Virus record (IMG/VR): IMGVR_UViG_3300043464_001377
Strand: one strand, 5' to 3'
Length of the DNA stretch: 33,916 nt
Source: an uncultured virus (IMG/VR IMGVR_UViG_3300043464_001377)
Lineage: Duplodnaviria > Heunggongvirae > Uroviricota > Caudoviricetes
Positions within the stretch are counted from its first letter, which is position 1. Each line of letters begins with the position of its first letter. Positions 15,304 through 33,916 of this stretch are shown piece after piece. Made by a program: the position numbers and the translations under genes. The notes beneath the pieces were generated by a model, which was given only the letters and a program-made list of their open reading frames with translations, made no database searches and was not told the origin of the DNA.

Positions 15304-15305
15304 CC

Positions 15306-15986: not shown

Positions 15987-16010
15987 AAAACTCCATTGAC
16001 ACAGAGAAGT

Positions 16011-16418: not shown

Positions 16419-16432
16419 CGTGAGGCATTTGT

Positions 16433-16861: not shown

Positions 16862-16962
16862 CAAGCCCCTCCGGTGGTCCCGCCCGGCGAGCCAGGCTCT
16901 GCCGAACTCGCCGGGTGGGCCATTTGACCGACATCACCCATCAAAGCAAAGGAGAGCCGACG

Positions 16963-17301: not shown

Positions 17302-17304
17302 CCT

Positions 17305-19860: not shown

Positions 19861-19913
19861 AGAACTCCGTGTAGCCTGAACTCTGGCTCTGACACACGGA
19901 GGTTTTTCAAGCC

Positions 19914-20198: not shown

Positions 20199-20473
20199 TG
20201 TTTGATGTCGAGTTTACTCTTCGCGCCGCTGCCGTCGTGGCGGCGGTTTTACTTGTGGCGTCCCCAAGCGTGGTGGGAGCAGTTCAAGCACTCCTGGCGT
20301 GGCGGCCGGTCTCGTTCAAGGTTCGGTCCTCCGGGCCTGAGCCGGAGACGACGGACGACGCCCATGTCGTGCTGGAGATTGCCCGTCGCCTCCAGAAGTC
20401 TGGCAACGTCGAGGGGGTGCGGCTGTGCAAGAGCCTCATCGACGTGCTACTCAAGCCGGAGAAGAAGCCATGA
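20198..20473 (+). CDS. Small membrane protein
   Basis: N-terminal hydrophobic helix; TGATG coupling. Confidence 0.55.
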   Translation: MFDVEFTLRAAAVVAAVLLVASPSVVGAVQALLAWRPVSFKVRSSGPEPETTDDAHVVLEIARRLQKSGNVEGVRLCKSLIDVLLKPEKKP

Positions 20474-20958
20474 AGCGAGTACGGCTGATTGCGGCCCTTC
20501 TTCTGGCTGCGTACGGCGTGTTCGGCATCCCGTCACTGCCGAAACTCAGTGTTCCGAGCCTGTCGGCGTCGGTTGTCAGGGAGCCCAGCGAGGCCATGAA
20601 AAGCACCGTCAAGCCTGTCGTCCGCGCTGTCAGCAAGATGTCCCCGATCGACCGACTCTGGCTCCAGACTATCTATAGCAACGCGGCGAAGGTCGTGGCC
20701 GCCGACGGCATCGTCGAGCCCCAGGCGATCGTCTCGACCGAGGGCCTGCGGGCGATCCATGTGGCAATCCTCAAGTTCATCTGGCGAGGTATGGCCGAGA
20801 ATCCGCCGGGCGAGTACGAGGGCCTGAGCGAGGCGATCGAGGGCGTAGTCGACGAGGTTCTCGGCGAAGACCAACGGTCGCTGACGCCTGAACTCCGGGC
20901 GAAGGCCGTCGAGGTCTTCGATGCGATTGCATGGGCTGGGCTTGGAAAGGATCAGTGA
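20470..20958 (+). CDS. Membrane-anchored or exported protein
   Basis: MKRVRLIAALLLAAYGVFG signal/anchor sequence. Confidence 0.6.
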   Translation: MKRVRLIAALLLAAYGVFGIPSLPKLSVPSLSASVVREPSEAMKSTVKPVVRAVSKMSPIDRLWLQTIYSNAAKVVAADGIVEPQAIVSTEGLRAIHVAILKFIWRGMAENPPGEYEGLSEAIEGVVDEVLGEDQRSLTPELRAKAVEVFDAIAWAGLGKDQ

Positions 20959-21929
20959 TGCCTGCTCCGTGGCGGCCCCAGGGGTACGTGCCTGATCGCG
21001 CGGCGACAGACAGGTTCGTCTCGTCGCTGAAGTACCCCACCCTGGCGGAAGCCGGGCCGAAACTCAAGAACAACGACAATCAAGACGTCGTTCTCTACCC
21101 GGCGATTCTCAAGGTCGATCCGCTCTACAAGCGTGTGGCCCAGGCAATCGGTTCGTGCGTCGGCCATGGCTGGGCCGGATGCGGGGACGCACTGGCCTCG
21201 ACGGAAATCGTCGTCCACGGCGAGGCCGAAGACTGGAAGGGCCGCATCCTCGAATCCTCGATTTACGGCGTGAGCCGGGTCGAAGCCAGAGGCAAGACCC
21301 GCGCGGGCACAGCCGACGGGTCGTTTGGCGCCGCAGCGGCGAAGGCCGTCATGCAGTGGGGCGTCCTGCACTACGGCGTGGACTACGGCGGCACGGTCTT
21401 CAAGGACTACTCTGGCATTCGCGAGAAGCAGTGGGGCGACACTGGCATGCCTGACGAACTGGAGAAGTTCGCCAAGCAACGCCGGATCAAGACCACGACC
21501 CTCGTCACAGATTTTGACTCGTATTGCAAAGCCATATCCAGCGGGTTCCCGGTCGCCATTTGTTCGGGCCAGGGCTTCACGATGTCCCGCTCGAAGGGAA
21601 AGACCGACGACGACATCGTCAATCGGGGCTTCGCCACACCTCGCGGCGAGTGGCTTCATTGCATGGCCGGGATCGGTAAGCGTGGCGGCAAGCGGCCGGG
21701 AGGGCTGATCTGGAACTCATGGGGAAGCAAGGCCCACACCGGGCCGCACTACTCTGGGATTCCTGACCGTCCTGACGACATACCCGCCGAGTTTCGAGGC
21801 TCGACGTTCTGGGTCGACGCTGAAGTCTTGGACAAGATGCTCAAGTCTTGGCAAGACTCGTTCGCCCTCTCGTCCTACGACGGCTTCCCGCCCCGGAAAC
21901 TCCCCTCGTGGACGGGAGGCATCCTGTGA
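20958..21929 (+). CDS. Papain-like (C1) cysteine peptidase
   Basis: QAIGSCVGH (Gln/Cys), WLHCM (His), IWNSWG (Asn). Confidence 0.82.
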   Translation: MPAPWRPQGYVPDRAATDRFVSSLKYPTLAEAGPKLKNNDNQDVVLYPAILKVDPLYKRVAQAIGSCVGHGWAGCGDALASTEIVVHGEAEDWKGRILESSIYGVSRVEARGKTRAGTADGSFGAAAAKAVMQWGVLHYGVDYGGTVFKDYSGIREKQWGDTGMPDELEKFAKQRRIKTTTLVTDFDSYCKAISSGFPVAICSGQGFTMSRSKGKTDDDIVNRGFATPRGEWLHCMAGIGKRGGKRPGGLIWNSWGSKAHTGPHYSGIPDRPDDIPAEFRGSTFWVDAEVLDKMLKSWQDSFALSSYDGFPPRKLPSWTGGIL

Positions 21930-22216
21930 CAAAGAAGGCCCTGCTTGCCGTGCTTGTGCTGGCCGGGTGCCAGCCTGAGCCAAGACTCACGCCGCAGCAG
22001 ATCGAACTGCTCGGCGAGTGCTTCTCCTGCGCGGCCTACGAGGTCATCAAGGCCGAGTCCCTCACTCCGGCCCCGCAGCCGCCGCAGAAGTGCTGCGGGA
22101 AGTGCAAGGGCGGGCTCGTGAAGTCCGGAGACGGCCTGGCGTGGGTGTCGTGCCCGTGCGACGACTCCTGCCCGTGCAAGACGAACTCCCTCATTCCCCC
22201 CAAGACCCTGCCGTGA
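21926..22216 (+). CDS. Lipoprotein with Cys-rich C-terminus
   Basis: Lipobox LAGC; CCGKC...CPCDDSCPC. Confidence 0.6.
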   Translation: MTKKALLAVLVLAGCQPEPRLTPQQIELLGECFSCAAYEVIKAESLTPAPQPPQKCCGKCKGGLVKSGDGLAWVSCPCDDSCPCKTNSLIPPKTLP

Positions 22217-22563
22217 ACCAGCAAGAACTCCGCGATCAACTGTGGCGGGAACTGCCGGTCCTGCGGCGAAACATCATCGGCCGCGAGAAGGTCGACGACA
22301 TAATCACGATCGCCATCGAGCAGTGCCCGCTGGAGTTCTTCCAGCATATCTCGCAGGGCTCGAACGAGCAGGACGTGGCCCTGGCGGCCTGGGGGCAGTC
22401 CGTGAAGCGTGGCTACGGCGAAGAGGCCCAGTTCGGCCCGCTGTTCTGGATTCTGGTGAGCCCCTTGATTCAGTACTTGCTCAAGCGGCTCTTGGAGTGG
22501 TGGTTCGAGTCGCGGGCCAATCGCGTGAAGATGGCCGGATGGAGGAGGGAGTTGACGAAATGA
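22213..22563 (+). CDS. Hypothetical membrane protein
   Basis: GTGA coupling; hydrophobic segment FGPLFWILVSPLIQYLL. Confidence 0.55.
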   Translation: MNQQELRDQLWRELPVLRRNIIGREKVDDIITIAIEQCPLEFFQHISQGSNEQDVALAAWGQSVKRGYGEEAQFGPLFWILVSPLIQYLLKRLLEWWFESRANRVKMAGWRRELTK

Positions 22564-22874
22564 CCGATGCGACCAAGCAGACGATCGTCGACACGGCGAT
22601 CAAAGTGGCCGGAGACTTCGGCGTCCCCGTAGTCATCCTGGCGGCGTTCATCTGGATGGCCCGCGAGGCGGCCACGACGCTTCATGGCACCGTCGTCGTG
22701 CCCATCGTGGCGTCGCACACGGAGTTCCTCGAATCGACTCGGGACACGCTGCACGAGATCGGAAGAACCCAGGCCCAGCAGGCCGAGACGCTCAAAGAAA
22801 TGGCTATTTCGCAGATCGAGATCAAGCAGGCCGTACTTCGGTCTGGGACGAAGCCAACTTTAGGCAATGACTGA
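22560..22874 (+). CDS. Holin-like single-TM protein with coiled coil
   Basis: FGVPVVILAAFIW followed by a heptad-like tail. Confidence 0.5.
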   Translation: MTDATKQTIVDTAIKVAGDFGVPVVILAAFIWMAREAATTLHGTVVVPIVASHTEFLESTRDTLHEIGRTQAQQAETLKEMAISQIEIKQAVLRSGTKPTLGND

Positions 22875-22932
22875 AGTTTGGATACAGTAAATGTGCCACG
22901 AGTTGGGCATGACCCACGCAAGGAGGTGACAA

Positions 22933-23283
22933 GTGGAACAGAAGATTCGCAGGAAGTACAAGACTTTCCCTATCGCGCTCTCGACCTCAACGGCGGCAGC
23001 GACGACGATCCGGTGGGACGATGTGGCCGGTGGCTGCATTGAGTTAGGAGCCGGGACGGCCGCGACATCGCTGCAAGTCTGGGCAAGCGACACTGACAGC
23101 GGGACGTTCGGCCGTCTATACGACTCGACTGGCGCTGCGGCCGACATCAAGTTGGCTCAGTCGTCGACCGAGGCCCGCGTCTACTCGCTCCCAGATGCCT
23201 GCTACGGAGCCGGGGCGATCAAGATCGTGGCTGGTCAAGAAGCAGCCACGGCGATCACCGCCAGCGTGATGCTCAAGACTTGA
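22933..23283 (+). CDS. Small virion-type beta protein
   Basis: AAGGAGG SD before GTG; Ala/Thr/Ser rich. Confidence 0.6.
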   Translation: MEQKIRRKYKTFPIALSTSTAAATTIRWDDVAGGCIELGAGTAATSLQVWASDTDSGTFGRLYDSTGAAADIKLAQSSTEARVYSLPDACYGAGAIKIVAGQEAATAITASVMLKT

Positions 23284-23303
23284 CGTCGGCGAGGAATTGC
23301 AGC

Positions 23304-23588
23304 ATGCCCAGGTACTTCCGCGCGACTCCCGAAGTCTACGCCACGATCTGTGCGCAACTGGACGCGGCATACGGTTACCCGCGACCCGAGACGCTGACTG
23401 ATCGCACGCTTCCGGAGGCTGGCTCGCTGCCTGTTGACGAGATCGGCCGGGTGTATCTCGCCGTGTCGGCGGCTTACTGCGACTACGTCTTGCCGTCGCA
23501 ACTGCTGCCAGAATTGCTCCTCACTGGCGCGGTGGAGGAGATCACCGCAGAAGACTATGCCGCCTTTCTTCCTGGGGATATTGAATGA
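23304..23588 (+). CDS. Hypothetical protein
   Basis: Operon position; overlaps next start. Confidence 0.55.
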   Translation: MPRYFRATPEVYATICAQLDAAYGYPRPETLTDRTLPEAGSLPVDEIGRVYLAVSAAYCDYVLPSQLLPELLLTGAVEEITAEDYAAFLPGDIE

Positions 23589-26194
23589 TGGCGATGTCGC
23601 CCATCATCATGCGTCCGCTCGCTCGCAGTCCGCTGCCGAAGCGGATTGGCGGCCTGGGGCTGTGGCTTGACGCAAACAACGGAGCGAGTTTGACGCTCAA
23701 CGGAGACGGCGTAAGTGAGTGGCGAGACCTCTCCGGTCGCGGGCGGCATTTTGTCCAGGCTACTGCCGCAAGCCAGCCAAATGCCGTGAGCCGCACCTAC
23801 AACGGGCTGCGAGTGATTGACTTCGATGGTACTCAGTTTTTGGAGGGCAACTCGGCGACGCTGAATCTCGCCCGCAACGTGCCGGGGCTCACGATCCTGA
23901 TGGTCGCCAAGGCGGACTCGTACGGAGGTGCCGAAGTCCACCGGTTTTACAACTGGAAGTGCGGCGGCAACGACTTGTCGCGGGCCTCGCTGTTTGTTCA
24001 GGGGTTCGCATCGTCGGCTGAAATCTGGCTCCGCAGCCGCCGGCTCGACAGCGAGACGTTTTACGACGCCGAGTATGAAGCAGGCCTCGACGCGATCAAC
24101 GCCAGCGTGTACACAGGCGTGATCAACTTCCAGGCTGCGGAGAGCCACCTGTATGTCGGCGGCTCACTGGTGGCGAGCAACCTGACCATGGGCACGCCCG
24201 GCCTTTCGTCCGACACCGACAGCCAGGACGCCTCGCTGGGCGCAAGGCTTGCCGACGGCGCGAGCGCGTGGGTGCAGCACCTCGACGGCTTTATTGCGGA
24301 GATGCTCGTCTACCAGCGAGTGCTGTCAGACCTAGAGCGGTCGCGTCTGGAGCAGTACTTGATCGACAAGTGGAATCCGCAGCCTGAGCCATTCTCTCCC
24401 GGCTCCCTCCCCGGCCTCGTCGGATGGTATGACTTCTCGGACGCATCGACACTGACGGTTGTCGATGGCGAGATCACGGCTGTCGCGAACAAAGGAACCG
24501 GAGAGCCGACAGCGACGGCGTTTGAGGCCCTGGAGCCAGCATTCGTCGCCTCCGCACAGAACGGCCGCAGTGCCGCCCGGTTTCCCCAAAACGACGTTGG
24601 CATCGCCACCGGCCTGTCGGTGGAGGTTCCGTACACAATCTTCCTTGCCGCTCGCCAGGGAGACGACGGCGATATTCGCCTGCTGTCCAGCGAAACCGAT
24701 CCCAATCTCATTTCGATTCGCAGAACAAACGACAACGTCGTTTACCTAAACGGCCAGTCAATCACGGACGATAAGTTTAGTGCCTCGCACTGGCCGACCT
24801 GCGTGACGCTGGAGGTTAGTTCTTTAGAGGCCATGGTGCGATACAACGGCACGGATATCGCATCAACTGCTACTGTGGGCGACTGGGGCGACCTCCTCAT
24901 CGGCAACGGGAACGACTACGAGTCGGGAAACGGCGACATATACGAGGTGCTGGTCTACGAGGGCATCCTCGCGCAACGCGAGAGGGTCGAGCAGTATCTG
25001 ATGCAGAAGTGGGACATCCGACCGGTGCCGTCTCCGAAGATCACGGCTACCACCAGCCTGCCCTTCGCGTCCGCGTGGGCTTCCATCGACACGGACACAG
25101 AGTGGTATGCCGTCAAGGTTGGCGACGAATCGCCGGTCTTGTTTTCTGCCGGGCAAGAGGCATGGAACGAGACGGCCGCAGGGAGCCAGCAGCAGTCCTC
25201 GCAGCAACTGGTCGCCAGCGATAGGGGGGCCGCTCGGCTAGATCACTCGCACGCCAAGTTCGGGAACACAAGCCTGCTGCTCGCAGGGGGGCACCTACAA
25301 TTGCAGGCGGGCGTCATCGACCTGTCGGCAGGAGATTGGACGATAGAGTGCTGGTTTCGGCCAGAGACTGAAGACCAGCCCGCAATGTGGCCGTCTGTCG
25401 TTAGTTTCGGGGACGGCTGGGTGCCAGGCGCGTGGTCGCTGCGGTACGATGATGACTCTGGGGCAGCGGGCGCATTCTCGGTGGTGGCCCATGACGAGGG
25501 CGCTCATTTGACGGCTGGCACCCCGTCGCCGTCTGGGCAGTGGCACCATGTCGCAGTAGTGCGAGACGGTGACGATGACAGGCTGTATGTCAACGGAGTG
25601 CTGGAGGCCACGCATACCCGAAACTTCACTGGGGAGCCAGGGGACTACATCTTACGCATCGGCGGCGGCTGGGACGGCGATAGCGCCGACTTGCTCGGCC
25701 ACATCGACGGACTTCGTATTGTCTCGGGCAGTGCCATCTACACCGGACCTTCATTCACCGTTCCGGCGGCAGCGCCGACGGCGATCAGTGGCACAGTGCT
25801 GTTGATGAACTTCGACGCGCCCGCCACTCCATCGCCCCGCGTGATTGAGATTTATCCGTGCGACGCCGAAGGCAACGCGGTCGGTCAGTTCACGGGAGTC
25901 GCGCTGTCTGGCAACGCGATCACGTCGCTGCGTGCGGAGGGCGTGTCCCTCGCGGCTACGGAGCCGGGCTACGTCTACCAATCCGGCTACGGCTCAGTGT
26001 ACTCCTCCGGCTCGGCAGCGGAGTGCGACCTGACTGGAAATCTACTGTCGGCGCAGGGGCTAAACACAGTGTACACGGACCTGCTGGGTGGATCGGGGTC
26101 GCTGTTCGTCACTGGCAATCCCGGCATCGACGCCGACGATCCGACGATTGCGACGGCGAAGGGGTATACGGTCTTTGGGTCGGAGGCGCCGTGA
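23585..26194 (+). CDS. Multi-LamG/ConA lectin-domain virion or tail protein
   Basis: LWLDA..VSEWRDLSG, G.IAE.LVY..L...EQYL..KW repeated twice; third domain DWTIECWF, WHHVAVVR, GHIDGLRI. Confidence 0.8.
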   Translation: MMAMSPIIMRPLARSPLPKRIGGLGLWLDANNGASLTLNGDGVSEWRDLSGRGRHFVQATAASQPNAVSRTYNGLRVIDFDGTQFLEGNSATLNLARNVPGLTILMVAKADSYGGAEVHRFYNWKCGGNDLSRASLFVQGFASSAEIWLRSRRLDSETFYDAEYEAGLDAINASVYTGVINFQAAESHLYVGGSLVASNLTMGTPGLSSDTDSQDASLGARLADGASAWVQHLDGFIAEMLVYQRVLSDLERSRLEQYLIDKWNPQPEPFSPGSLPGLVGWYDFSDASTLTVVDGEITAVANKGTGEPTATAFEALEPAFVASAQNGRSAARFPQNDVGIATGLSVEVPYTIFLAARQGDDGDIRLLSSETDPNLISIRRTNDNVVYLNGQSITDDKFSASHWPTCVTLEVSSLEAMVRYNGTDIASTATVGDWGDLLIGNGNDYESGNGDIYEVLVYEGILAQRERVEQYLMQKWDIRPVPSPKITATTSLPFASAWASIDTDTEWYAVKVGDESPVLFSAGQEAWNETAAGSQQQSSQQLVASDRGAARLDHSHAKFGNTSLLLAGGHLQLQAGVIDLSAGDWTIECWFRPETEDQPAMWPSVVSFGDGWVPGAWSLRYDDDSGAAGAFSVVAHDEGAHLTAGTPSPSGQWHHVAVVRDGDDDRLYVNGVLEATHTRNFTGEPGDYILRIGGGWDGDSADLLGHIDGLRIVSGSAIYTGPSFTVPAAAPTAISGTVLLMNFDAPATPSPRVIEIYPCDAEGNAVGQFTGVALSGNAITSLRAEGVSLAATEPGYVYQSGYGSVYSSGSAAECDLTGNLLSAQGLNTVYTDLLGGSGSLFVTGNPGIDADDPTIATAKGYTVFGSEAP

Positions 26195-26853
26195 CCTACT
26201 TCAGCACTCCACGCCACCGAGTGGCGATCAACGCAAAGGTCGGCTCGTCCTCGCTGGCGAGGGCCATTATCAAGCAGTTCTATCCAAAGCAGAATAGGCT
26301 GATCCGCACGGCCGCGTTTCCGCCCGGCGTGGACGAGACGAAGCGGCAATGGCACCGAATGTGTCCTCGCACGGGGAAGACTCGCAAGCCGGTGCTGCTC
26401 CTGGTGCGTGACCCGTTGTCGCGTTTTCTCTCGGCCATGCAACAGGTCGGACTCAAAAGCAAGGACGTTGAGGCGGCAATAGACTCGCTGGAAAACGACA
26501 CAGCAGTGCCGTCGTTGCGCAACCGAAAGAGGCGGCGGCGGCCAAGCCGGAAGGATCGGCGTATCGGCCGCCTGCGAGACGACGTGCATTTCGCCCACCA
26601 GCACACGCTCGCCAACGGGCCGACCAAGTGCTACCGATTCCCTGACCACTTAGAGCAGGCGGCTGCGGAGATTGGGCTGACGGGCAGGCTGCCAAGGGCC
26701 AACGAGGCCAAGAGAGAGAAGCCGACGCTGACTCCCGAGCAGGAGGCAAGAGTTCGCGCGTACTACGCGGCCGATCAGTCTCTGTTTGCGTCGATCACGC
26801 AGGCGGGGCATGTGTACACGCCGGCGCTGCCGGTGGAGCCAGCCGAAGCCTAA
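26191..26853 (+). CDS. Sulfotransferase-family (Sulfotransfer_2-like) protein
   Basis: AKVGSSSL (5'-PSB-like), VRDPLSRFLS (3'-PB-like), DVHF.HQ, YYAAD. Confidence 0.7.
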   Translation: MTYFSTPRHRVAINAKVGSSSLARAIIKQFYPKQNRLIRTAAFPPGVDETKRQWHRMCPRTGKTRKPVLLLVRDPLSRFLSAMQQVGLKSKDVEAAIDSLENDTAVPSLRNRKRRRRPSRKDRRIGRLRDDVHFAHQHTLANGPTKCYRFPDHLEQAAAEIGLTGRLPRANEAKREKPTLTPEQEARVRAYYAADQSLFASITQAGHVYTPALPVEPAEA

Positions 26854-26903
26854 AACCAGGCGGCAACTTTAGTCCTGCTCGCCTGCACTGGTAGCCTGGA
26901 GCC

Positions 26904-27215
26904 ATGGCTACTTTCAAGCAACTTCCGGCAGTGATGAACCTCGCGTTCAAGGCCGGTGACGCCGTGTCGCCGACGGTCGACTTCGACACGTCCCTGACAG
27001 GCCTGACAGTCTCGGCCCAGGTGTACTCGCTGGTTGACCGGAGAAAGATTTACGACATTCCGGTTGTGGTCTCGAACGCCACGAGCGGCGTGGTCACGAT
27101 GTCAATTTCTTCTTCGCTCACGACGCAGACTCCTGCTGGCTCGTACGGTTGGCAGATGCAGTGGAGCAGCCCACTGCGAACTGTCATGGCTGGCACGGTC
27201 GATGTGATTGGGTAG
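26904..27215 (+). CDS. Small baseplate/tail (BppU-like) protein
   Basis: GD....DF...LTG, SGVVTMS, G.Y.W.MQ, GTV.V pattern. Confidence 0.5.
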   Translation: MATFKQLPAVMNLAFKAGDAVSPTVDFDTSLTGLTVSAQVYSLVDRRKIYDIPVVVSNATSGVVTMSISSSLTTQTPAGSYGWQMQWSSPLRTVMAGTVDVIG

Positions 27216-27218
27216 CAA

Positions 27219-28304
27219 ATGCCAGTCTTCGTCTCGCCCGGCCAGATTTCCGCTTCCGTCTCCGGCAACTCGATCACGGCGAGCGTGTCTGGCGGCAGCG
27301 GCGTGGCTGTGTCCCAGTCCGCAAGCCAGCCCGTGTCGTTTCCGCAGGGAATCCAGACGCCAGCCCCCGTCCAGAGCGTCAACGGCCAGATCGGCAACGT
27401 CGTCATTCCTGTGGCAACCTGGGTGCCTCATAAGCCACCAGGCGTCGCCTGGCTGTCAAGCGTGCTGGACTCTGGCTCGTTCTCTCTTTCGGCTCGCTCG
27501 TCGACAGGGTATGCGGCCGTGCAGTGGTGGGACGGATCGGTGCAGGCGTACGGCGCGGGATCGCCAGGGCAATACATCGCTGCTTCAAAGGCTGTCCTAG
27601 CGTCGGGCTATTGGGCCAAGTCGACCATCAAGCAAGTATTCGTCTGGTCTTGTGCATCTGCCGCGAACGCATCGCAGTCTGGCTCACTTACGGGGCTCTC
27701 CTGCTCTTCAAAGAAAGTCTTTGCTCTCTCGATCGACGGCTGCTCGTCGCTGCTCGAAGTCTCGTGTGACTCGAATCAACTCACGAGCCTGAACCTCACT
27801 GGCTGCACGGCACTCCAGACGATCTCGTGCCACCTAAATAGCCTGACGAGCCTCGACGTCAGCGACGCCACGCCCCTCACGAGCCTGTACTGCCAGGGCA
27901 ACTCCCTGCGAGGCCTGGACGTGACGAGAAACACAGCCCTGCAAGTCCTGTCATGCAGCACAAATCTCCTCGCGGCCCTTGACCTCTCGCAGAACTCGGC
28001 CCTGGTTGGCCTGTACTGCTTTGGCAACCAACTAACAACGCTAGACATTCGCAACAAGCCTGCCCTGCGAGACGTGATCGCATCGAGCAACTCCATTTCG
28101 CTCGTGCGGGCAGCGGGAGTCGCCGCGTCTGGCGTGGCGGGCATGAACGTCGCGTCAAATCAACTCAACGCCGCGTCTCTGAACTCGCTATACACCGACC
28201 TCGCGTCAGTCCAGTCAGGCGTGATCTATGTCTCGGGCAACCCCGGCGTGGCTGGAGACAATCCGGCGATCGCCACCGCGAAGGGATACACGGTCAATGG
28301 CTGA
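27219..28304 (+). CDS. Leucine-rich-repeat virion-associated protein
   Basis: About 6 tandem 21-aa LxxLxCxxNxLTxLD(V/L) repeats; VQSVNGQIGNV tail-fibre-like motif. Confidence 0.8.
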   Translation: MPVFVSPGQISASVSGNSITASVSGGSGVAVSQSASQPVSFPQGIQTPAPVQSVNGQIGNVVIPVATWVPHKPPGVAWLSSVLDSGSFSLSARSSTGYAAVQWWDGSVQAYGAGSPGQYIAASKAVLASGYWAKSTIKQVFVWSCASAANASQSGSLTGLSCSSKKVFALSIDGCSSLLEVSCDSNQLTSLNLTGCTALQTISCHLNSLTSLDVSDATPLTSLYCQGNSLRGLDVTRNTALQVLSCSTNLLAALDLSQNSALVGLYCFGNQLTTLDIRNKPALRDVIASSNSISLVRAAGVAASGVAGMNVASNQLNAASLNSLYTDLASVQSGVIYVSGNPGVAGDNPAIATAKGYTVNG

Positions 28305-28833
28305 CTTCTATCGCACCGTGGGCAAGCACAGCGTCCTGACGTCAGTGCCGGAACTGGCCGGGCAACTCGGGAACAATTTAGAGCCGAGCCCAAGCGGCCT
28401 GCCGGTGGCTGTATTCGGCGAGGGGCACCGAGACCTGGGCTCGCTGGCCGTGGGCACGGCTGTCTTTTGGTGGCCCAACCACGCCCAGGAACTGTCTTCG
28501 CTGCTGGGCCTAGACTTGCAGCCCTCAAGTCTTCCGCAAGTCCCTGGCGTCCTGCCTGGATTCATCGTCGACGAGGCTGACTTTGCAGTGCCCCAGACCA
28601 TCACGGCCACGCAGATTCGCCTCTGGCTTTTCAGAAATGGCGTGAGCCTGGAGGCTGTCCAGAGTGCGATCGACGCCATCCCAGACGAGGCGGCTCGCGG
28701 CGAGACTCGCATCCAGTGGGAGTATGCGCCCTACGTAGAGCGGAGCCATCCATTCATCAACGCCCTCGGCCAGAGTCTTGGGCTGACCAGCGAGCAGATC
28801 GACCAGGCGTTCGTCGAGGCTGCTCGACTGTAG
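28297..28833 (+). CDS. Tail-fibre-associated protein
   Basis: ITATQIRLWL, WEYA.YVER.HP, LGLTSEQIDQAF motifs typical of genes next to tail fibres. Confidence 0.6.
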   Translation: MADFYRTVGKHSVLTSVPELAGQLGNNLEPSPSGLPVAVFGEGHRDLGSLAVGTAVFWWPNHAQELSSLLGLDLQPSSLPQVPGVLPGFIVDEADFAVPQTITATQIRLWLFRNGVSLEAVQSAIDAIPDEAARGETRIQWEYAPYVERSHPFINALGQSLGLTSEQIDQAFVEAARL

Positions 28834-28845
28834 GCGAAAATCTCG

Positions 28846-28873
28846 TTGCGTGCGATTTTGCGACCGCTACGAT
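28846..28873 (+). promoter_or_regulatory. Sigma70-like promoter upstream of the small-ORF/cassette region
   Basis: TTGCGT-16 bp-TACGAT; ATG 8 nt downstream (leaderless-like); GCGACC/GGTCGC inverted repeat brackets the -10. Confidence 0.5.
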
Positions 28874-28881
28874 CGGGTCGC

Positions 28882-29355
28882 ATGAGCAACTGGATTCCCA
28901 CCGGCGAGCGACTTCCAGTCGAGACTGGCTGGGTGCTGGTCACCGTCGAGACTGACGGGCGTCGCGAAGTTGGCATCGCCAGGGCGATCAACAAGCAGAT
29001 CGGCCTCGACTCGCCAGACATGGCCCCGCGTGTCACGCACTGGATGCCGCTGCCGGAGCCCGCGAAAAACTGCGTGGCTGGATTGGTCTTGTGCGTCGCC
29101 GTGCTGGTCGGGTGCGCCGCGCCGAATCCCGCAGCCTTCAAGTCCTACACCGTGACGGTCACGAGGCCGGATGGCGTTGTCCACCGGACTCTGCAAATCC
29201 AAAGCACAGAACATCCAAGAGTCGAGTCGTTCGACGACGAAGGCGGGTGCCTGCGGGTGCTGTACTGGAATGGTTCCTTCGATCGCTACAGCACGCAGCC
29301 ATTTCCGTCGGGGTGGCTCGTCGAGGTCGAGCCGAACGCGGAGGCGAGCAGATGA
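28882..29355 (+). CDS. DUF551-domain protein fused to a lipoprotein-like segment
   Basis: WIPTGERLP...VTHWMPLPEP followed by LVLCVAVLVGC. Confidence 0.65.
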   Translation: MSNWIPTGERLPVETGWVLVTVETDGRREVGIARAINKQIGLDSPDMAPRVTHWMPLPEPAKNCVAGLVLCVAVLVGCAAPNPAAFKSYTVTVTRPDGVVHRTLQIQSTEHPRVESFDDEGGCLRVLYWNGSFDRYSTQPFPSGWLVEVEPNAEASR

Positions 29356-29543
29356 GCGACGACACCTCGTGGATGGACGGGCCTGTGCTGGTCGATCCTC
29401 CGAGCGGCTGGAGGTGGGGATTCCCAAAACTCTGGGATCGCAAGACGCCGTGCCGGGAGTGGCTGGTCGCCAATGGGTATCCAGAGCATCTGGCGAATCA
29501 AGACTTGCCGTGCCGGTTCATTCAGCCGGAGCGAGAGGATTGA
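29352..29543 (+). CDS. Small phage protein
   Basis: VDPPSGWRWGFPK...WLVANGYP; ATGA coupling. Confidence 0.65.
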   Translation: MSDDTSWMDGPVLVDPPSGWRWGFPKLWDRKTPCREWLVANGYPEHLANQDLPCRFIQPERED

Positions 29544-29837
29544 ATGCACGTCATCGACAAAGCAGCCTATGAAGGCGACATCGTCTCTCGGCTCAGGAAC
29601 TGGCGAGGGCTGCACCTCGCTCACAGCGGGGAGTTGTTCGAGGAGGCGGCCGACGAAATTGAAAAGATTCGCGCCTACAGAGACGAAGCCGAGGATGCGG
29701 CGTCGATAGCGAACCTGGCGGCACTCAGCCTGCGGCTGACCGACGATGAGTGGGGGGCGATTGCATACTATGTCGGCACTGGCGGGCCTCGTGGTGTAGA
29801 CGCCACGCTCCGCTCACTGCTGGAGCGAACGAAATGA
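29544..29837 (+). CDS. Small phage protein (DIV.RLR/EAADEIE motif) with LTxxE...LLERT tail
   Basis: GDIVSRLR, EAADEIE, RLTDDEW...TLRSLLERTK. Confidence 0.65.
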   Translation: MHVIDKAAYEGDIVSRLRNWRGLHLAHSGELFEEAADEIEKIRAYRDEAEDAASIANLAALSLRLTDDEWGAIAYYVGTGGPRGVDATLRSLLERTK

Positions 29838-30013
29838 GCCTGGACAAGGCTATCGAACACGGCAAGGAGAAACGGAAGGGCTATCACAAATCCGCCGCCG
29901 TTGACCGCACATGCCGACCCGGAGGCACATGCCCGTATTGCTCTAGGGGCAGGCGGCACAAGAACAAAAAGCGAGCGGCAGCGGCGAAGGACAAGGAGAG
30001 TGACTGTGGCTGA
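29834..30013 (+). CDS. Small basic Cys-containing phage protein
   Basis: MSLDKAIEHGKEKRK..DRTCRPGGTCPYC. Confidence 0.6.
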   Translation: MSLDKAIEHGKEKRKGYHKSAAVDRTCRPGGTCPYCSRGRRHKNKKRAAAAKDKESDCG

Positions 30014-30236
30014 AGAACAGAATCCGGTGGCGTGGGCGGCGGTCGCCAAGAATGACGCCGCCGACTGGCTGCGGCACGCGATCGCCGCCGACCGCATCAG
30101 GATCGCGCAACTGGAGTCAGAGATCGAGCGCCTGCGGCTCACCTTCGAGGAGCGGCAGGCGATGATGCGCGCGATGTATCGGGTTGTTGGCGCCGACTCC
30201 GAAATACTCTGGTCGCTGCTGGAGCGGACGAGGTGA
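30006..30236 (+). CDS. Small phage protein (PVAW motif, LTxEER tail)
   Basis: AAGGAG SD before GTG; stop codon lies in the attC core TGAGAAC. Confidence 0.65.
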   Translation: MAEEQNPVAWAAVAKNDAADWLRHAIAADRIRIAQLESEIERLRLTFEERQAMMRAMYRVVGADSEILWSLLERTR

Positions 30237-30323
30237 GAACGACAAGGATCAGGAGCGGCGAGACATGAACACTGACAACACGCAGGACGGTGCCGAGCCG
30301 TCTCCTGCATCCGCTGGTTCTGC
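30234..30323 (-). other. attC site A (type 1, 90 bp)
   Basis: Minus strand: AGAAC-CAGCG-GATGCAGG...CCTGATC-CTTGTC-GTTCTCA. Confidence 0.85.
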
Positions 30324-30552
30324 CACGCTCACTGTGGACGACGTTGCGTTGCTCTACGACGAATGGAAGCGGCGATACTGCGGCCCGCGAGACATGGTGA
30401 TTCTGGTGCGGAGGCCAATGTGGAAACGAGTGCTTTCCGTCCCGTGGATGTGGTGGTCGCACTTCGGACTGGCTTGCCAATACACGGGCATTTTTCAATC
30501 CGCAAGGCTGGCAACGCTCTTCGTCTGGGCGTTCCTTACGGCTCGCAAGTAG
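30265..30552 (+). CDS. Cassette protein starting inside attC A
   Basis: AGGAG-9 nt-ATG within the attC; N-terminus MNTDNTQDGAEPSPASAGS; hydrophobic C-terminus. Confidence 0.6.
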   Translation: MNTDNTQDGAEPSPASAGSATLTVDDVALLYDEWKRRYCGPRDMVILVRRPMWKRVLSVPWMWWSHFGLACQYTGIFQSARLATLFVWAFLTARK

Positions 30553-30554
30553 TG

Positions 30555-30644
30555 GTAGAACGCCAGCGATCAGCGGCCCGCGACCTATGACCATGAACAA
30601 ACCAACCGACGATCTCGCGGGTCCGCTGCATCGCGTGGTTCTCA
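30555..30644 (-). other. attC site B (type 2, 90 bp)
   Basis: + strand AAC-GCCAG-CGATCAGCGGCCCGCGA...TCGCGGG(T)CCGCTG(C)ATCG-CGTG-GTT. Confidence 0.85.
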
Positions 30645-30805
30645 CTGGTCGGCAGCGAGAGGCAATCATGTATTGCATCGCGTGTGCGCAGGACTTCCGA
30701 GACACTATTGATTCGTTTGAACCTGACGGCGATTTGGCGCGACAAAAGGCCACTGAGAACATTGACATTGCCATAAGGCTCGTTTGGCCGCTCGTTGGCC
30801 CTTAG
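30587..30805 (+). CDS. Cassette protein starting inside attC B
   Basis: ATG in the attC loop; LTGRQREAI motif. Confidence 0.55.
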   Translation: MTMNKPTDDLAGPLHRVVLTGRQREAIMYCIACAQDFRDTIDSFEPDGDLARQKATENIDIAIRLVWPLVGP

Positions 30806-30821
30806 CAGACGAAGGACGAAA

Positions 30822-30974
30822 ATGAACAGAGAACCGATGTGGCTGTCAGTTCTGGTGTTTCCCATGAGAGCGGCCTTCGTAGTTATGGGGCTGTCGATGG
30901 TGGCGGCATTTTTAGTCGCGCCTTGGGTCTTGATTGCTTGGGCCGCAGGCTGTTGGTGCGGATGGTGTAAGTGA
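30822..30974 (+). CDS. 50-aa hydrophobic membrane peptide
   Basis: AAGGA SD; MNREPMWLSVLVF...WCGWCK; stop in the TGAGAAC core. Confidence 0.55.
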   Translation: MNREPMWLSVLVFPMRAAFVVMGLSMVAAFLVAPWVLIAWAAGCWCGWCK

Positions 30975-31006
30975 GAACCAGTGTTTCTCAACGTAAAGGA
31001 GTTTGC

Positions 31007-31588
31007 ATGACGACTTTTGGGTTTTTCCTGTCTGCGGCCACGCTGGCTCTTGGGCTGCTTCTTGGCTACATCGTTTTTGGGATGAGACCGAAGCCTGCGC
31101 AAGATGACTACGCTGATTGTTTGATTCACCCCGAGACAACGCCGCAGGTCAAGTGGGTGAAAATGACGCGGCCTACGAGGGACGCGATCATCGACATCTA
31201 CGCGGCCAACATGGACGAGTGCAAGAAGTTCATGGAGGCAAACGACCGCGTTACGACTGGCGAGGCGGCGATACTGTGGCTCATGGAAAAGGCGAAGCGA
31301 CAACACCGGCGATCAGCGGCCCGCGACCGCTGCATCGCGTGGTTCTCAAAAGCAAAGGAGACAGGCATGAGTGATCTTGTGCCGCCGATGATGCCTGACG
31401 ATCTGGATGCGCTCATCCAGGCGATGGAGCGAGTGCAGCAGTTAGAGGCGGAGGTGGAAAAGTTGCGGCTCACCGGCGAGGAGCGGGAGGCGATTGCGTG
31501 GTTTTCGGTCTACTCCGACACGCCAGGAGAGGAGCGGCACGCGGCCGTGCTGGAGACACTGATTGCACGGTTGGATTGTGACCGATGA
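31007..31588 (+). CDS. Fused ORF reading through attC C; second start at 31367
   Basis: AAAGGAG SD before both ATG 31007 and in-frame ATG 31367. Confidence 0.55.
   Translation: MTTFGFFLSAATLALGLLLGYIVFGMRPKPAQDDYADCLIHPETTPQVKWVKMTRPTRDAIIDIYAANMDECKKFMEANDRVTTGEAAILWLMEKAKRQHRRSAARDRCIAWFSKAKETGMSDLVPPMMPDDLDALIQAMERVQQLEAEVEKLRLTGEEREAIAWFSVYSDTPGEERHAAVLETLIARLDCDR
31298..31348 (-). other. attC site C (short type 2, 51 bp)
   Basis: AAC-ACCGG-CGATCAGCGG-CCCGCGA-CCGCTG(C)ATCG-CGTG-GTTCTCA. Confidence 0.75.
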
Positions 31589-31659
31589 TCAGCGATAACC
31601 GCGAAAATAGGCGGCGATCATCACTGACCACAGAGAGCAGCCCGAGAAAGGACGTTGAT

Positions 31660-31896
31660 ATGACACAGAACGAACTGGCCGAACGGCTGCGAGACATGAG
31701 CGACGCGCTCAACATTTGCGGTGCCGATTACAGTGACGTTTTGCTGGACGCGGCGAGAGAACTGGACCGCAGGAGTTGGATTCCGCAGCCCACGCTCACC
31801 GACGAGGAGCGGGAGGCGTTGCGCGGGATGCTTCCGACGATCATGTACGAACCGCACAGGAAGGCGATTGAGTCGATACTGGCACGGCTTGGTTGA
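31660..31896 (+). CDS. Cassette protein with PTLTDEERE tail
   Basis: AAAGGA SD; LAERLR..DAAREL; stop in the attC D core. Confidence 0.65.
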   Translation: MTQNELAERLRDMSDALNICGADYSDVLLDAARELDRRSWIPQPTLTDEEREALRGMLPTIMYEPHRKAIESILARLG

Positions 31897-31983
31897 GAAC
31901 ACGCAGGATCAGGAGCGGCGAACAATGAGCGATGACAACACGCAGGACGGTGCCGAGCCGTCTCCTGCATCGGCTGGTTCTCA
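31894..31983 (-). other. attC site D (type 1, 90 bp)
   Basis: Near-identical to A and H; encodes 20-aa peptide MSDDNTQDGAEPSPASAGSH (31925-31987). Confidence 0.85.
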
Positions 31984-32005
31984 CTGACAGAAACAAGGAG
32001 TTGAA

Positions 32006-32221
32006 ATGCCGAAGTGCATCATCGGTCCCAATGGAGTGGCTCACGGCCCAATGTGCAAGGACGGTCGCTTGTGCGGTTTTCGCGGAAACCAACTAGAGAG
32101 CGACCGCAAGTCGCAGCCCACGCTCACCGACGAGGAGCGGCAGGTGATATTTCGCGCGATGTATCGGGCTGCCGGCGCCGACTCCGCAATACTCTGGTCG
32201 CTGCTGGAGCGGACGAGGTGA
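32006..32221 (+). CDS. Cassette protein with PTLTDEER tail
   Basis: AAGGAG SD; stop in the attC E core. Confidence 0.65.
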   Translation: MPKCIIGPNGVAHGPMCKDGRLCGFRGNQLESDRKSQPTLTDEERQVIFRAMYRAAGADSAILWSLLERTR

Positions 32222-32308
32222 GAACGACAAGGATCAGGAGCGGCGAACAATGAACACTGACAACACGCGGGGCGCGGCCGAGCCGTCTCTTGCATCCGCT
32301 GGTTATGC
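32219..32308 (-). other. attC site E (type 1, 90 bp)
   Basis: AAC-GACAA-GGATCAGGAG-CGGC...GCCG(T)CTCTTG(C)ATCC-GCTG-GTTATGC. Confidence 0.85.
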
Positions 32309-32609
32309 GGTTGGCGATGTGATGGCGTTTCAGTGCGGGTTGCGTGGCGAATCATGGGAACTGCACAAAATCACCCGCATTACCGAGAAGGGGCTGATGA
32401 CTTGTGGCCCGTACCAGATAGACGCGCACCTGCGAGTCAGGGGGCGAACGGGCTATTCCGGGCCGATTTGCAGAGGCAGGCCGACGCCTAAAATCATGGC
32501 AGAAGTTCAGCGGCAAAGGGCTATTGCCATTATCAAGGCGACGAACTGGAGCAGCGTGCCGCTGGACAACCTTTTGGGTGTGATAGCGGTGCTGGAACAA
32601 GACGCATAA
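32250..32609 (+). CDS. Cassette protein starting inside attC E
   Basis: N-terminus MNTDNTRGAAEPSLASAG; stop TAA in the attC F core. Confidence 0.65.
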   Translation: MNTDNTRGAAEPSLASAGYAVGDVMAFQCGLRGESWELHKITRITEKGLMTCGPYQIDAHLRVRGRTGYSGPICRGRPTPKIMAEVQRQRAIAIIKATNWSSVPLDNLLGVIAVLEQDA

Positions 32610-32692
32610 CGCCAGCGATCAGCGGCATCGAACACAGGAGCAACCATGACAAACGATGTAGATGAGATGTCTGCTGCATCGCGTGGTTCTCG
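32604..32692 (-). other. attC site F (type 2, 89 bp)
   Basis: AAC-GCCAG-CGATCAGCGGCATC...GATG(T)CTGCTG(C)ATCG-CGTG-GTT; AGGAG and ATG in the loop. Confidence 0.85.
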
Positions 32693-32894
32693 CATGGTCG
32701 GCTCCGCTCCCGTCGAACGCCTTGGTGCCACCAAGGTCACTGACGTAGGCGAGTCGGGGCTGGCTTTGGCGAGCGAGGAAAGGAATGCCATCGTCGAAGT
32801 GCTTGAATGTTGGCGGCGATCTTCCGCGATACAGCAGCAACTGCCAGAGTGGAGCGTTGTTTCGCTTTGCTCACTGCTGTGGAGGACGAGGTGA
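32646..32894 (+). CDS. Cassette protein starting inside attC F
   Basis: CAGGAG SD; LASEERNAI...SLLWRTR tail. Confidence 0.6.
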   Translation: MTNDVDEMSAASRGSRMVGSAPVERLGATKVTDVGESGLALASEERNAIVEVLECWRRSSAIQQQLPEWSVVSLCSLLWRTR

Positions 32895-32904
32895 CCGAGG
32901 GGAG

Positions 32905-32953
32905 CGAGAACGCCAGCGATCAGCGGCTCGTCCGCTGCATCGCGTGGTTATGG
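32905..32953 (-). other. attC site G (minimal type 2, 49 bp)
   Basis: AAC-GCCAG-CGATCAGCGG-CTCGT-CCGCTG(C)ATCG-CGTG-GTT. Confidence 0.8.
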
Positions 32954-32981
32954 CCGGGCGAGGACAACATGAGGACGCGAG

Positions 32982-33185
32982 ATGCGATGGAAGATGATCG
33001 ACAGGCCAGCCGACGGGAACGAGGTGAGCCAGTGGTTCGCGTTCTGGCCCGTCACTGTCAAAGGCGAAACCCGGTGGCTGGAATGGGTGGCTGTGGAGTA
33101 TCGAATCGTCATCGCGGGTTACTCCGACGCTCTGAAAGTGAGGCCCGGCAAGATTCACAAGCACGCGGTGCGGTTCATTTCATAG
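32982..33185 (+). CDS. Cassette protein (WFAFWPV...RWLEWV)
   Basis: Fills cassette G; aromatic motif seen in small phage proteins. Confidence 0.6.
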   Translation: MRWKMIDRPADGNEVSQWFAFWPVTVKGETRWLEWVAVEYRIVIAGYSDALKVRPGKIHKHAVRFIS

Positions 33186-33275
33186 CCATAACACGCAGGA
33201 TCAGGAGCGGCGAACAATGAGCGATGACAACACGCAGGACGGTGCCGAGCCGTCTCCTGCATCCGCTGGTTCTCG
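33186..33275 (-). other. attC site H (type 1, 90 bp)
   Basis: Body near-identical to D. Confidence 0.85.
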
Positions 33276-33549
33276 CGGGGAGCCAGTCGCGTGGGGCGTC
33301 TTCTACGGTGATGGGAAACTTCACTCATCATGGGACTCGCACGCAAAGGCCGAATGCACGGCGGTGACGATGCGACGGTTCGACCATCTCGGCGTCTATG
33401 TTTCGCCGCTCTACCGCTCGCCCACGCTCACCGACGAGGAGCGGGCGGCCATTGCCGAAGCGGCCGGAGCCTACAACGACAACGATGACGATGAGGAGTG
33501 TGCGAAGATCGCGGCCACGCTTCACAGCCTACTGAAGCGGCTAGGTTGA
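33217..33549 (+). CDS. Cassette protein starting inside attC H (EPVAW...PLY, PTLTDEER tail)
   Basis: MSDDNTQDGAEPSPASAGS N-terminus; stop in the attC I core. Confidence 0.7.
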   Translation: MSDDNTQDGAEPSPASAGSRGEPVAWGVFYGDGKLHSSWDSHAKAECTAVTMRRFDHLGVYVSPLYRSPTLTDEERAAIAEAAGAYNDNDDDEECAKIAATLHSLLKRLG

Positions 33550-33595
33550 GAACGTCAGCGATCAGCGGCTCGTCCGCTGCATCGCGTGGTTCTGT
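33547..33595 (-). other. attC site I (minimal type 2, 49 bp)
   Basis: Body differs from G by one base. Confidence 0.8.
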
Positions 33596-33627
33596 GGTTT
33601 GTTGGATGACACAACAGGAGGATTGAA

Positions 33628-33903
33628 ATGCTCTACAACGCAATCAAGCGGCGAGACAACCTTATCTCAGGTCTGCGCGACTCGCAGGAGTTTTTTTGCA
33701 ATGCCATGAACAGGCAGCATGGCAGCCTCATCGACTGGATGCGGTGGCAGATTGAGAAGCGCGAGACGCGGCTAGACACTATCGGCCTGATCGCAAAGGC
33801 AGGCGGCGAGCCGTTGACCGCAGACGCCGCTAGGACGGCTGGCGAGGTGGCGGCATTCCACGCCGTGCTGGCGTACATCAACAACGGTTGGAAGGCAGAG
33901 TAG
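33628..33903 (+). CDS. Cassette protein, hypothetical
   Basis: AGGAGG SD; fills cassette I. Confidence 0.65.
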   Translation: MLYNAIKRRDNLISGLRDSQEFFCNAMNRQHGSLIDWMRWQIEKRETRLDTIGLIAKAGGEPLTADAARTAGEVAAFHAVLAYINNGWKAE

Positions 33904-33905
33904 TC

Positions 33906-33916
33906 ACAGAACACGC
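33906..33916 (-). other. attC site J, truncated by window end
   Basis: ACAGAAC-ACGC matches the start of D and H; core complements GTTCTGTG at 33589. Confidence 0.65.

What the first reader, a model, noticed from the sequence alone, without database searches (positions are those of the whole stretch)
30317..33912. Co-varying complementary core sites at both ends of every cassette show real excision/insertion units
Seen: the bases after each GTT are the reverse complement of the bases before a downstream AAC, hundreds of bases away. GTTCTGCCAC(30317)/GTGGTAGAAC(30552) 9/10; GTTCTCACT(30638)/AGTGAGAAC(30970) 9/9; GTTCTCAA(31342)/TTGAGAAC(31893) 8/8; GTTCTCAC(31977)/GTGAGAAC(32218) 8/8; GTTATGCG(32302)/CGCATAAC(32603) 8/8; GTTCTCGC(32686)/GCGAGAAC(32904) 8/8; GTTATGGC(32947)/GCCATAAC(33185) 8/8; GTTCTCG(33269)/TGAGAAC(33547) 6/7; GTTCTGTG(33589)/CACAGAAC(33905) 8/8. 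The two cores of a single in-array attC often mismatch (E, F, G, H). Established: this pattern is what results when circular cassettes with a fully paired attC integrate by crossover at G|TT. Also seen: the shared gene end CGGCTwGGTTGAGAAC (31885 and 33538) is followed by different attC types, with homology breaking exactly at AAC.
Basis: seen in the sequence. Interest (0 to 1): 0.88.

Follow-up and report, generated by a model that had tools for sequence, protein, structure and literature searches.

The report
Reversed integron gene cassettes in a phage
The last 3.7 kb of this lake-water phage contig is a row of small swappable genes separated by integron-type DNA hairpins. The matching ends of each gene unit show the units really move, but each hairpin belongs to the gene after it, the reverse of bacterial integrons.

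Summary
Observation confirmed. All nine core pairs sit at the stated coordinates. Only 24 of 362,880 permutations pair as well. In 104 non-homologous units from related viral contigs, 0 of 10,000 shuffles reach the observed pairing. Flanks of one in-array hairpin pair at random.

The window is a phage. The nine 41-82 nt elements have attC geometry: AAC...GTT, unpaired spacer, one bulged base, variable loop.

Between relatives, homology mostly breaks at AAC on the + strand. The upstream hairpin travels with its gene; the downstream one mostly does not. Most long hairpins (105 of 127) carry the next gene's start codon.

No integron integrase appeared in 49 related phage records. Three near-complete ones have no tyrosine recombinase at all. 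A host integrase acting in trans is therefore the likeliest agent. This is inferred.

attC clusters in phages are published (Qi 2023). This scan noted reversed phage cassettes before on other DNA. I rate it a new variant of a known kind.

The parts
30238..30319 (+). Element 0, 82 nt, type B attC-like hairpin. It carries a ribosome site, ATG 30265 and a 19-codon leader read in frame into ORF 30265-30552.
30559..30640 (+). Element 1, 82 nt, long type A. ATG 30587/30593 in its loop opens ORF to 30805.
   Evidence: The near-identical record G001 diverges from the window exactly at this AAC.
30976..30985 (+). Stub site AAC CAGT GTT. It ends unit 30641-30978, whose ends pair 9 of 9, and starts unit 30979-31304 with no hairpin.
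   Evidence: In L060/L174 the same gene follows a normal short element. In L145/L138 the same stub and gene follow a different ...CACAGAAC beside what looks by eye like a tRNA 3' end.
31302..31344 (+). Element 2, 43 nt, short type A. ORF 31007-31588 reads through it with no stop.
31898..31979 (+). Element 3, 82 nt, type B. Its leader ORF (ATG 31925) stops at 31987. The gene 32006-32221 has its own ribosome site.
32223..32304 (+). Element 4, 82 nt, type B. ATG 32250 reads into ORF 32250-32609.
32608..32688 (+). Element 5, 81 nt, long type A. ATG 32646 reads into ORF 32646-32894.
   Evidence: The same element and gene occur in L027 behind a different upstream gene.
32909..32949 (+). Element 6, 41 nt, short type A.
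33190..33271 (+). Element 7, 82 nt, type B. ATG 33217 reads into ORF 33217-33549.
33551..33591 (+). Element 8, 41 nt, short type A.
33910..33916 (+). First bases (AACACGC) of a tenth element, cut by the end of the window. The array goes on beyond the contig end.
30240..33911 (+). Ten gene units, each running from the C of one AAC to the AA of the next. Boundaries: 30240, 30561, 30978, 31304, 31900, 32225, 32610, 32911, 33192, 33553, 33911. Each is a hairpin (or stub) plus one to two small ORFs of no known family.
29544..30236 (+). Small genes of the same LTDEER...LLERT[RK] paralogue family just upstream of the array, with no hairpins between them. The first element abuts the stop of ORF 30000-30236 (TGAGAAC).
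1..29500 (+). Phage backbone: SNF2 and UvrD helicases, PDDEXK exonuclease, primase-polymerase, two DNA methyltransferases, GIY-YIG endonuclease, LamG virion protein, DUF551. No tyrosine recombinase.

Best explanation
The region is a phage-borne array of integron-type gene cassettes built back to front. Each unit is a folded attC-like site followed by its gene(s).

As single-stranded DNA, the + (coding) strand folds like an attC bottom strand. It has 5'-AAC on one arm, a 4-5 nt unpaired spacer, a 3-4 bp L box, one bulged base on the other arm, a variable loop, and GTT at the end. A tyrosine recombinase of the integron-integrase kind cuts in the AAC of two such hairpins. This releases a circle in which the gene's two ends (NNNNNAAC and GTTNNNNN) close the R stem. 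The circle re-inserts at another AAC.

That history, plus selection for a paired R stem in the circle, gives the covariation. The other strand is used less often, which gives the minority of GTT breakpoints.

The loop of the long hairpins doubles as the ribosome site, start codon and first codons of the gene behind it. The stop codon of the gene in front sits in the R'' core.

The recombinase is not on this contig. It is most likely a host integron integrase acting in trans.

Shown here: the structure, the covariation, the breakpoints and the absence of a phage integron integrase. Inferred: the single-strand mechanism, the circles, and the identity of the enzyme.
For: Covariation:.

Structure: a sequence-blind detector looked for AAC, a spacer, 4 bp, a bulge on the 3' arm, 6 bp and GTT, requiring at least 9 of 10 Watson-Crick pairs. 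It finds exactly the 9 window elements. It finds none on the - strand or elsewhere in the window, and 0 in 351 kb of shuffled DNA. Over 285 sources it finds 756 elements on one strand and 3 on the other.

Geometry matches the published bottom strand. The integrase cuts in 5'-AAC-3', the extrahelical bases lie near L'' on the other arm, and fewer extrahelical bases give weaker strand choice (Nivina 2016, PMC5027507, passages).

Breakpoints:
- G001 is 99% identical to window 28000-30561 and diverges at AAC 30559-30561.
- L031 and L035 hold the same three units in the order abc versus cab, each unit running exactly from AAC through the hairpin and gene to the next AAC.
- In 47 informative pairs the upstream element was same/similar/different in 17/11/14, and the downstream element in 5/2/31. 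Fisher p=5.7e-4 by pairs. By gene families the counts are 11:9 versus 4:17, p=0.025.

Coupling to the next gene: 105 of 127 long elements hold an ATG whose ORF of at least 40 aa reads through GTT, 94 of them with a ribosome site. None of 64 short elements does.

Circular form: the R stem forms in 8 of 9 units against 4 of 9 in the array, with mean dG -19.7 against -15.7 kcal/mol.

Recombinase in trans: TIGR02249 scores over cut-off in 0 of 49 related viral records. Three records at least 92% complete, of 204, 205 and 38 kb, have no PF00589 match at all yet carry elements. No recombinase lies beside the right end of 7 arrays. IntI1 recombines attC sites from other phages (Qi 2023, PMC9892861, section 3.4).
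Against: - No integron integrase was found anywhere. There is none in the window, none over cut-off in 49 viral records and no candidate in 88 metagenome loci.
- No bacterial integron with this attC type was shown. The exact type-A pattern occurs in only 2 of about 185,000 species genomes. One of the two is a chance match, and the other is a 14.7-kb contig of a MAG with no integron integrase over cut-off.
- The single bulged base is C on the strand I call bottom, whereas the attC sites that Nivina 2016 tested have two or three such bases, G16 among them (passages).
- Polarity is not clean. 14 of 42 upstream breaks lie at GTT, and 5 of 38 downstream elements co-travel.
- The family-level test is only p=0.025, and pairs are not fully independent.
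- Two otherwise identical elements differ in the spacer next to AAC, which a simple AA|C crossover does not explain.
- No circle or junction molecule was seen. The runs are kept as contigs, which cannot show one.
Confidence: 0.7

Rival explanations
1. Canonical polarity. Each cassette is a gene plus the attC after it, the - strand is the recombining bottom strand, and the crossover is at G|TT on the + strand.
For: Covariation fits this equally well. 14 of 42 pairs break at GTT upstream. In 5 of 38 pairs the downstream element stays with the gene although the next gene differs. The bulged base is G on the - strand.
Against: The downstream element differs in 31 of 38 pairs, and the upstream one is the same in 17 of 42. 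G001 diverges at AAC. The abc/cab units run AAC to AAC. On the - strand the bulge lies on the same arm as the 5'-AAC, opposite to the published geometry. 105 of 127 long elements carry the start of the gene after them.
Confidence: 0.1
2. The phages shuffle these units themselves with their own small Xer-like tyrosine recombinase (about 290 aa), without any integron integrase.
For: A homologue is present in 17 of 20 element-bearing records that are at least 90% complete, 12 of them at 35-80% identity, and in 5 of 5 records in the first look. The family's nearest clusters are viral. Integron integrases are relatives of XerC/D (recalled). No integron integrase was found anywhere.
Against: Three near-complete element-bearing phages have no tyrosine recombinase at all. 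The gene is never next to an array: it lies 12-50 kb away, and no recombinase sits beside 7 array ends. It scores far below the integron-integrase model. Its only match among solved structures is XerD at 2e-6. Most temperate phages have an integrase anyway, and no control set of element-free phages was examined.
Confidence: 0.17
3. The hairpins are expression signals only (translation-start modules, terminators or processing sites). End covariation reflects long-range mRNA pairing, and genes are exchanged by ordinary homologous recombination within the conserved arms.
For: Most long elements carry a ribosome site and start codon, and stop codons sit in the R'' core. The arms are near-identical among copies, which would favour homologous exchange. 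One joint in contigs lies in a ribosome-site region and not at a core (31360 to 32002).
Against: Breakpoints fall at the AAC or GTT triplets, not inside the conserved arms. The 64 short elements carry no start codon. An 8-bp stem across 200-900 nt is weak. The geometry is that of attC sites.
Confidence: 0.04

Closest known systems
Clusters of attC sites lacking an integron integrase (CALINs) in phage genomes (Qi, Rajabal, Ghaly, Tetu, Gillings 2023, PMC9892861; abstract and section 3.4 read)
   Same: attC-type hairpins separate small genes in a phage with no integrase nearby. Those authors showed that IntI1 recombines 5 of 6 tested phage attC sites.
   Different: Qi et al. report 17 CALINs, each with at least two attC sites. 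[quoted passage not shown] Here there are 9 complete sites plus the first bases of a tenth in 3.7 kb, up to 15 in relatives, and 756 in 285 sources. The site lies in front of its gene and often holds its start codon. No GenBank phage matches this array.
Gene cassettes and attC sites of bacterial integrons. Cassette definition from ACID (PMC2674596, passages). Strand choice from Nivina 2016 (PMC5027507, passages).
   Same: An R box with invariant AAC/GTT, an unpaired spacer, an L box with a bulged base, and a variable loop. The cassette ends form the R stem only in the circular form. Order is rearranged at the triplet.
   Different: Genes lie on the strand that folds like the bottom strand. There is one bulged base, and it is C. 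The covarying R stem is 8 bp. No intI, attI or Pc was found. About a quarter to a third of breaks use the other end.
Inverted cassettes produced by top-strand recombination (Nivina 2016, PMC5027507, passages)
   Same: Recombination of the other strand inverts a cassette relative to the array. Sites with few extrahelical bases choose the strand less strictly.
   Different: There it is a rare error in a bacterial array. Here the whole array, and 756 of 759 elements across relatives, share the reversed layout.

Membership tests
integron attC site | Inverted core sites ending in AAC and starting with GTT (R''/R') | tested here: met
   All 9 window elements and 756 in relatives.
integron attC site | Folded single strand with an unpaired central spacer, a paired L box, and extrahelical base(s) on the arm opposite the cleaved 5'-AAC | tested here: met
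   The + strand folds with a 4-5 nt spacer, a 3-4 bp L box and one bulged C on the 3' arm. Geometry is compared with passages of PMC5027507. Only one bulged base, and it is C.
integron attC site | Variable terminal structure: length varies while the arms are kept | tested here: met
   Lengths 41-83 nt with the same arms.
integron attC site | Recombined by an integron integrase | not testable with these tools
   Needs a recombination assay. Qi 2023 showed it for other phage attC sites.
integron gene cassette | Unit bounded at the conserved triplet. Its own attC is complete, with a paired R box, only in the circular form. | tested here: met
   Breakpoints between relatives fall at AAC or GTT.
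integron gene cassette | ORF on the top strand with the attC downstream of it | tested here: not met
   The attC lies upstream of its gene on the coding strand.
complete integron | intI gene and attI beside the array | tested here: not met
   No tyrosine recombinase in the window. TIGR02249 over cut-off in 0 of 49 related records. None beside 7 array ends. The window ends inside the array, so its own far end is unseen.
CALIN | Two or more attC sites with no integron integrase nearby (definition recalled from the IntegronFinder papers) | tested here: met
   9 sites, and no integrase in the 30 kb upstream.
integron integrase (for the phage Xer-like recombinase of relatives) | Scores as TIGR02249, the integron-integrase equivalog model | tested here: not met
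   Best hits are XerD/XerA models at 50-55 bits. TIGR02249 is not among them. At most 23 bits in 49 records.

The most novel reading that the evidence does not exclude
Unrelated freshwater phages of 30-205 kb share one common pool of small accessory genes. They trade these genes as attC-first cassettes through a host integron integrase, using mainly the coding strand. The attC has been co-opted as the translation start of each gene. Such phage arrays could be a source of the many tiny orphan cassettes of bacterial chromosomal integrons, or a route between bacterial integrons.
Probability: 0.3. Interest if true: 0.8.

Novelty: new variant of a known kind. Interest (0 to 1): 0.6.

Why it matters
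Integrons are known as bacterial gene-capture devices. In print, phages are known to carry only a few short attC clusters. Here a whole family of uncultured lake phages keeps long arrays whose units demonstrably change place and partner at the recombination triplet. No integrase is encoded by the phages examined, and the layout is reversed so that the recombination site also serves as the gene's translation start.

This gives a concrete, testable case of phages using a host recombination system to reshuffle their accessory genes. It also bears on where integron cassettes come from. The covariation itself is the expected hallmark of integron cassettes and is not new.

Tried and rejected
- Whole genome of the window: none is held.
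- Host: not established. No tRNA in the window. No cultured relative: the primase matches 3 phages at 26-31% identity, and the array matches no GenBank phage. I could not reach Planctomycetota genomes, because the tool needs a genome handle. The earlier notes' claim of a Planctomycetota attC type is therefore untested here.
- The Chloroflexia match L101 has no structural element and is a chance hit.
- Circle junctions in reads: all 24 runs are kept as contigs. Unitigs break at the hairpins, and joints have short sides (21-34 nt) within repeats. I read no junction from them. Unitig depths of gene bodies differ from the backbone (X12: 12.6 against 11.5-357.7), but such depths sum over organisms, so I draw nothing firm from them.
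- Cassette protein function: Pfam at E up to 0.01 gave a single sub-threshold match among the array and upstream ORFs (DUF1192, 16.8 bits, cut-off 25.5, on ORF 30000-30236). PHROGs gave two negligible hits.
- MITE-like self-mobile hairpins: rejected. The flanks of one element are unrelated to each other, while the gene ends covary.
- Recombinase beside arrays: only ordinary phage genes lie there.
- Rows dropped: units with more than 2,500-3,000 nt between elements; flanks shorter than 40 nt were not scored; loci fetched for other purposes (L096-L102, L168-L170, L172) were left out of the counts.
Full report
WHAT IS THERE

The window is 33,916 bp at 61.7% G+C. No whole genome is held for it.

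Positions 1-29,500 are a phage backbone with genes on the + strand. It encodes SNF2 and UvrD helicases, a PDDEXK exonuclease, a primase-polymerase, two DNA methyltransferases, a GIY-YIG endonuclease, a LamG virion protein and DUF551. None of the 54 ORFs scanned is a tyrosine recombinase.

From 30,238 to the end of the window, small ORFs are separated by nine repeats on the + strand. The 3'-arm motif occurs with at most 1 mismatch only there. Twelve hits with at most 2 mismatches were found against 0.7 expected, and nine of them are in the array.

The repeats are of three sorts:
- Short type A, 41-43 nt.
- Long type A, 81-82 nt.
- Type B, 82 nt. This type carries a ribosome site, an ATG and a 19-codon leader.

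THE OBSERVATION

Over the five variable bases beyond GTT/AAC, the nine pairs score 4,5,5,5,5,5,5,3,5. Of 362,880 permutations, 24 reach that total and 16 reach seven full pairs. The two flanks of a single in-array element score a mean of 2.44, no better than chance.

Two corrections. The AGTGAGAAC at 30970 is followed by a 4-base stub (AAC CAGT GTT) and not by a hairpin. The unit behind it (30979-31304) has ends that do not pair.

IS IT GENERAL?

The exact type-A pattern occurs in 95 stretches of viral contigs, and the type-B pattern in 65. It occurs in at least 126 metagenome stretches. Among about 185,000 species genomes it occurs in only 2 stretches. One of these has no structural element. 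The other is a 14.7-kb contig of a MAG.

I wrote a detector that ignores sequence. It asks only for AAC, a spacer, 4 bp, a bulge on the 3' arm, 6 bp and GTT, with at least 9 of 10 Watson-Crick pairs.
- It finds exactly the nine window elements.
- It finds nothing on the - strand and nothing in 351 kb of shuffled DNA.
- Over 285 sources it finds 756 elements on one strand and 3 on the other.

I then took one unit per homology cluster (104 clusters, at least 75% identity over 80% of length). The ends pair at a mean of 4.46 of 5, with 63 fully paired. No shuffle out of 10,000 reaches this, and the largest shuffled mean is 3.08. Complementarity stops exactly five bases beyond the triplet. So the covariation is real and is not inherited from a few related genes.

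WHICH WAY ROUND?

Covariation cannot say whether the hairpin belongs to the gene before it or the gene after it. Breakpoints between relatives can.

- G001, the nearest record, is 99% identical to window 28000-30561. It then carries a different hairpin and gene. The break is at AAC 30559-30561.
- L031 and L035 hold the same three units in the order abc and cab. Each unit is 100% identical from AAC, through its hairpin and gene, to the next AAC.
- In 47 informative pairs of gene bodies at least 90% identical, I scored the flanking elements. Where the upstream context differs, the upstream element is the same (at least 0.95 identity) in 17, similar in 11 and different in 14. Where the downstream context differs, the downstream element is the same in 5, similar in 2 and different in 31.
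- Fisher's test on same versus different gives p=5.7e-4 by pairs. Counting gene families (11:9 against 4:17) it gives p=0.025.

So the hairpin mostly travels with the gene after it, and the main crossover is in AAC on the + strand. A real minority of breaks lie at GTT.

Three other results agree.
- 105 of 127 long elements hold an ATG whose ORF of at least 40 aa reads through GTT into the next gene, 94 of them with a ribosome site. None of 64 short elements does.
- The stop codon of the gene in front lies in the R'' core: TGAGAAC 68 times, TAG-N6-AAC 49 times and TAAC 19 times.
- On the + strand the bulged base lies on the arm opposite the 5'-AAC. That is the published layout of the recombining bottom strand. 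On the - strand it lies on the same arm as the AAC.

When each window unit is closed on itself, the R stem forms in 8 of 9 units against 4 of 9 in the array. Mean dG is -19.7 against -15.7 kcal/mol.

WHO DOES IT?

No integron integrase was found.
- TIGR02249 scores over cut-off in 0 of 49 related viral records, 20 of which are at least 90% complete.
- No candidate appeared in 88 metagenome loci. The only three tyrosine recombinases there are of the phage Xer-like type.
- None lies beside the right end of seven arrays, where only ordinary phage genes are found.

A small Xer-like recombinase is present in 17 of 20 near-complete records. It scores as XerD/XerA at about 50 bits. Its only match among solved structures is XerD at 2e-6. 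It is never next to an array.

Three near-complete element-bearing phages, two of them about 205 kb, have no tyrosine recombinase at all. A recombinase supplied in trans is therefore needed at least there. Given the attC geometry, and the published finding that IntI1 recombines phage attC sites, a host integron integrase is the likeliest agent. This step is inferred. I showed no host and no bacterial integron with this attC type.

READS

24 lake and freshwater metagenome runs hold the array region. All are kept as contigs. Their unitigs break at the hairpins. In X12 one contig covers 30294-30561 and leaves the window sequence at the AAC. No circle can be read from contigs.

COMPARISON WITH WHAT IS KNOWN

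- The cassette definition (ACID, PMC2674596, passages) already implies that a cassette's own attC is complete only in the circle. The covariation is therefore the expected hallmark of integron cassettes.
- attC clusters in phages are published (Qi 2023, abstract and section 3.4). That paper reports 17 CALINs, each with at least two attC sites. For two phages it describes gene cassettes oriented in the same direction, as is most typical of bacterial arrays.
- In two full-text searches I found no paper describing attC-first arrays in phages (listings only, not exhaustive).
- Earlier notes of this scan describe the same reversed layout in other phage windows. The kind is therefore not new to the scan.

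VERDICT

I rate it a new variant of a known kind, with interest 0.6.

Noticed in passing
window 32698-32763 (+): Match to Rfam RF03075 (DUF3800-VIII RNA) at 39.6 bits, just under the gathering score of 40.2, E=6.7e-5. It covers the full model length and lies inside cassette ORF 32646-32894.
   Followed up: partly
window 31007-31588: This ORF has no stop before element 2. It reads in frame through the 43-nt hairpin into the next gene, which has its own ribosome site and ATG at 31367.
   Followed up: no
window 30976-30985; L145 and L138 about 140-165 and 410-435: A hairpin-less stub (AAC CAGT GTT) precedes the same gene in three contexts. In L145/L138 it lies just after what looks by eye like a tRNA 3' end. 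In L060/L174 the gene follows a normal short element. This may be a collapsed attC, or insertion at a bare AAC site.
   Followed up: partly
window 29544-33549: Many of the small proteins, inside the array and just upstream of it, share an L(T)xEER(E/Q)A motif and ...LLERTR or ...ARLG ends. This is a paralogous family of unknown function.
   Followed up: no
L035 versus L060, and L014 versus L154 (upstream elements of homologous units): Otherwise near-identical hairpins differ in the 5-nt spacer right after AAC (GGCTG versus GCTTG; GCCAG versus GCTTG). A simple AA|C crossover does not explain this fine mosaic.
   Followed up: no
window 31360 to 32002: Contigs of three runs (X1, X2, X4) join these two ribosome-site regions, skipping 641 nt with 3 other letters between. 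This looks like a variant joined outside the core sites.
   Followed up: no
G037 and G038 (records of L118 and L127): Two phages of about 205 kb carry 1 and 4 elements of the same family, so the family spans very different phage types.
   Followed up: partly
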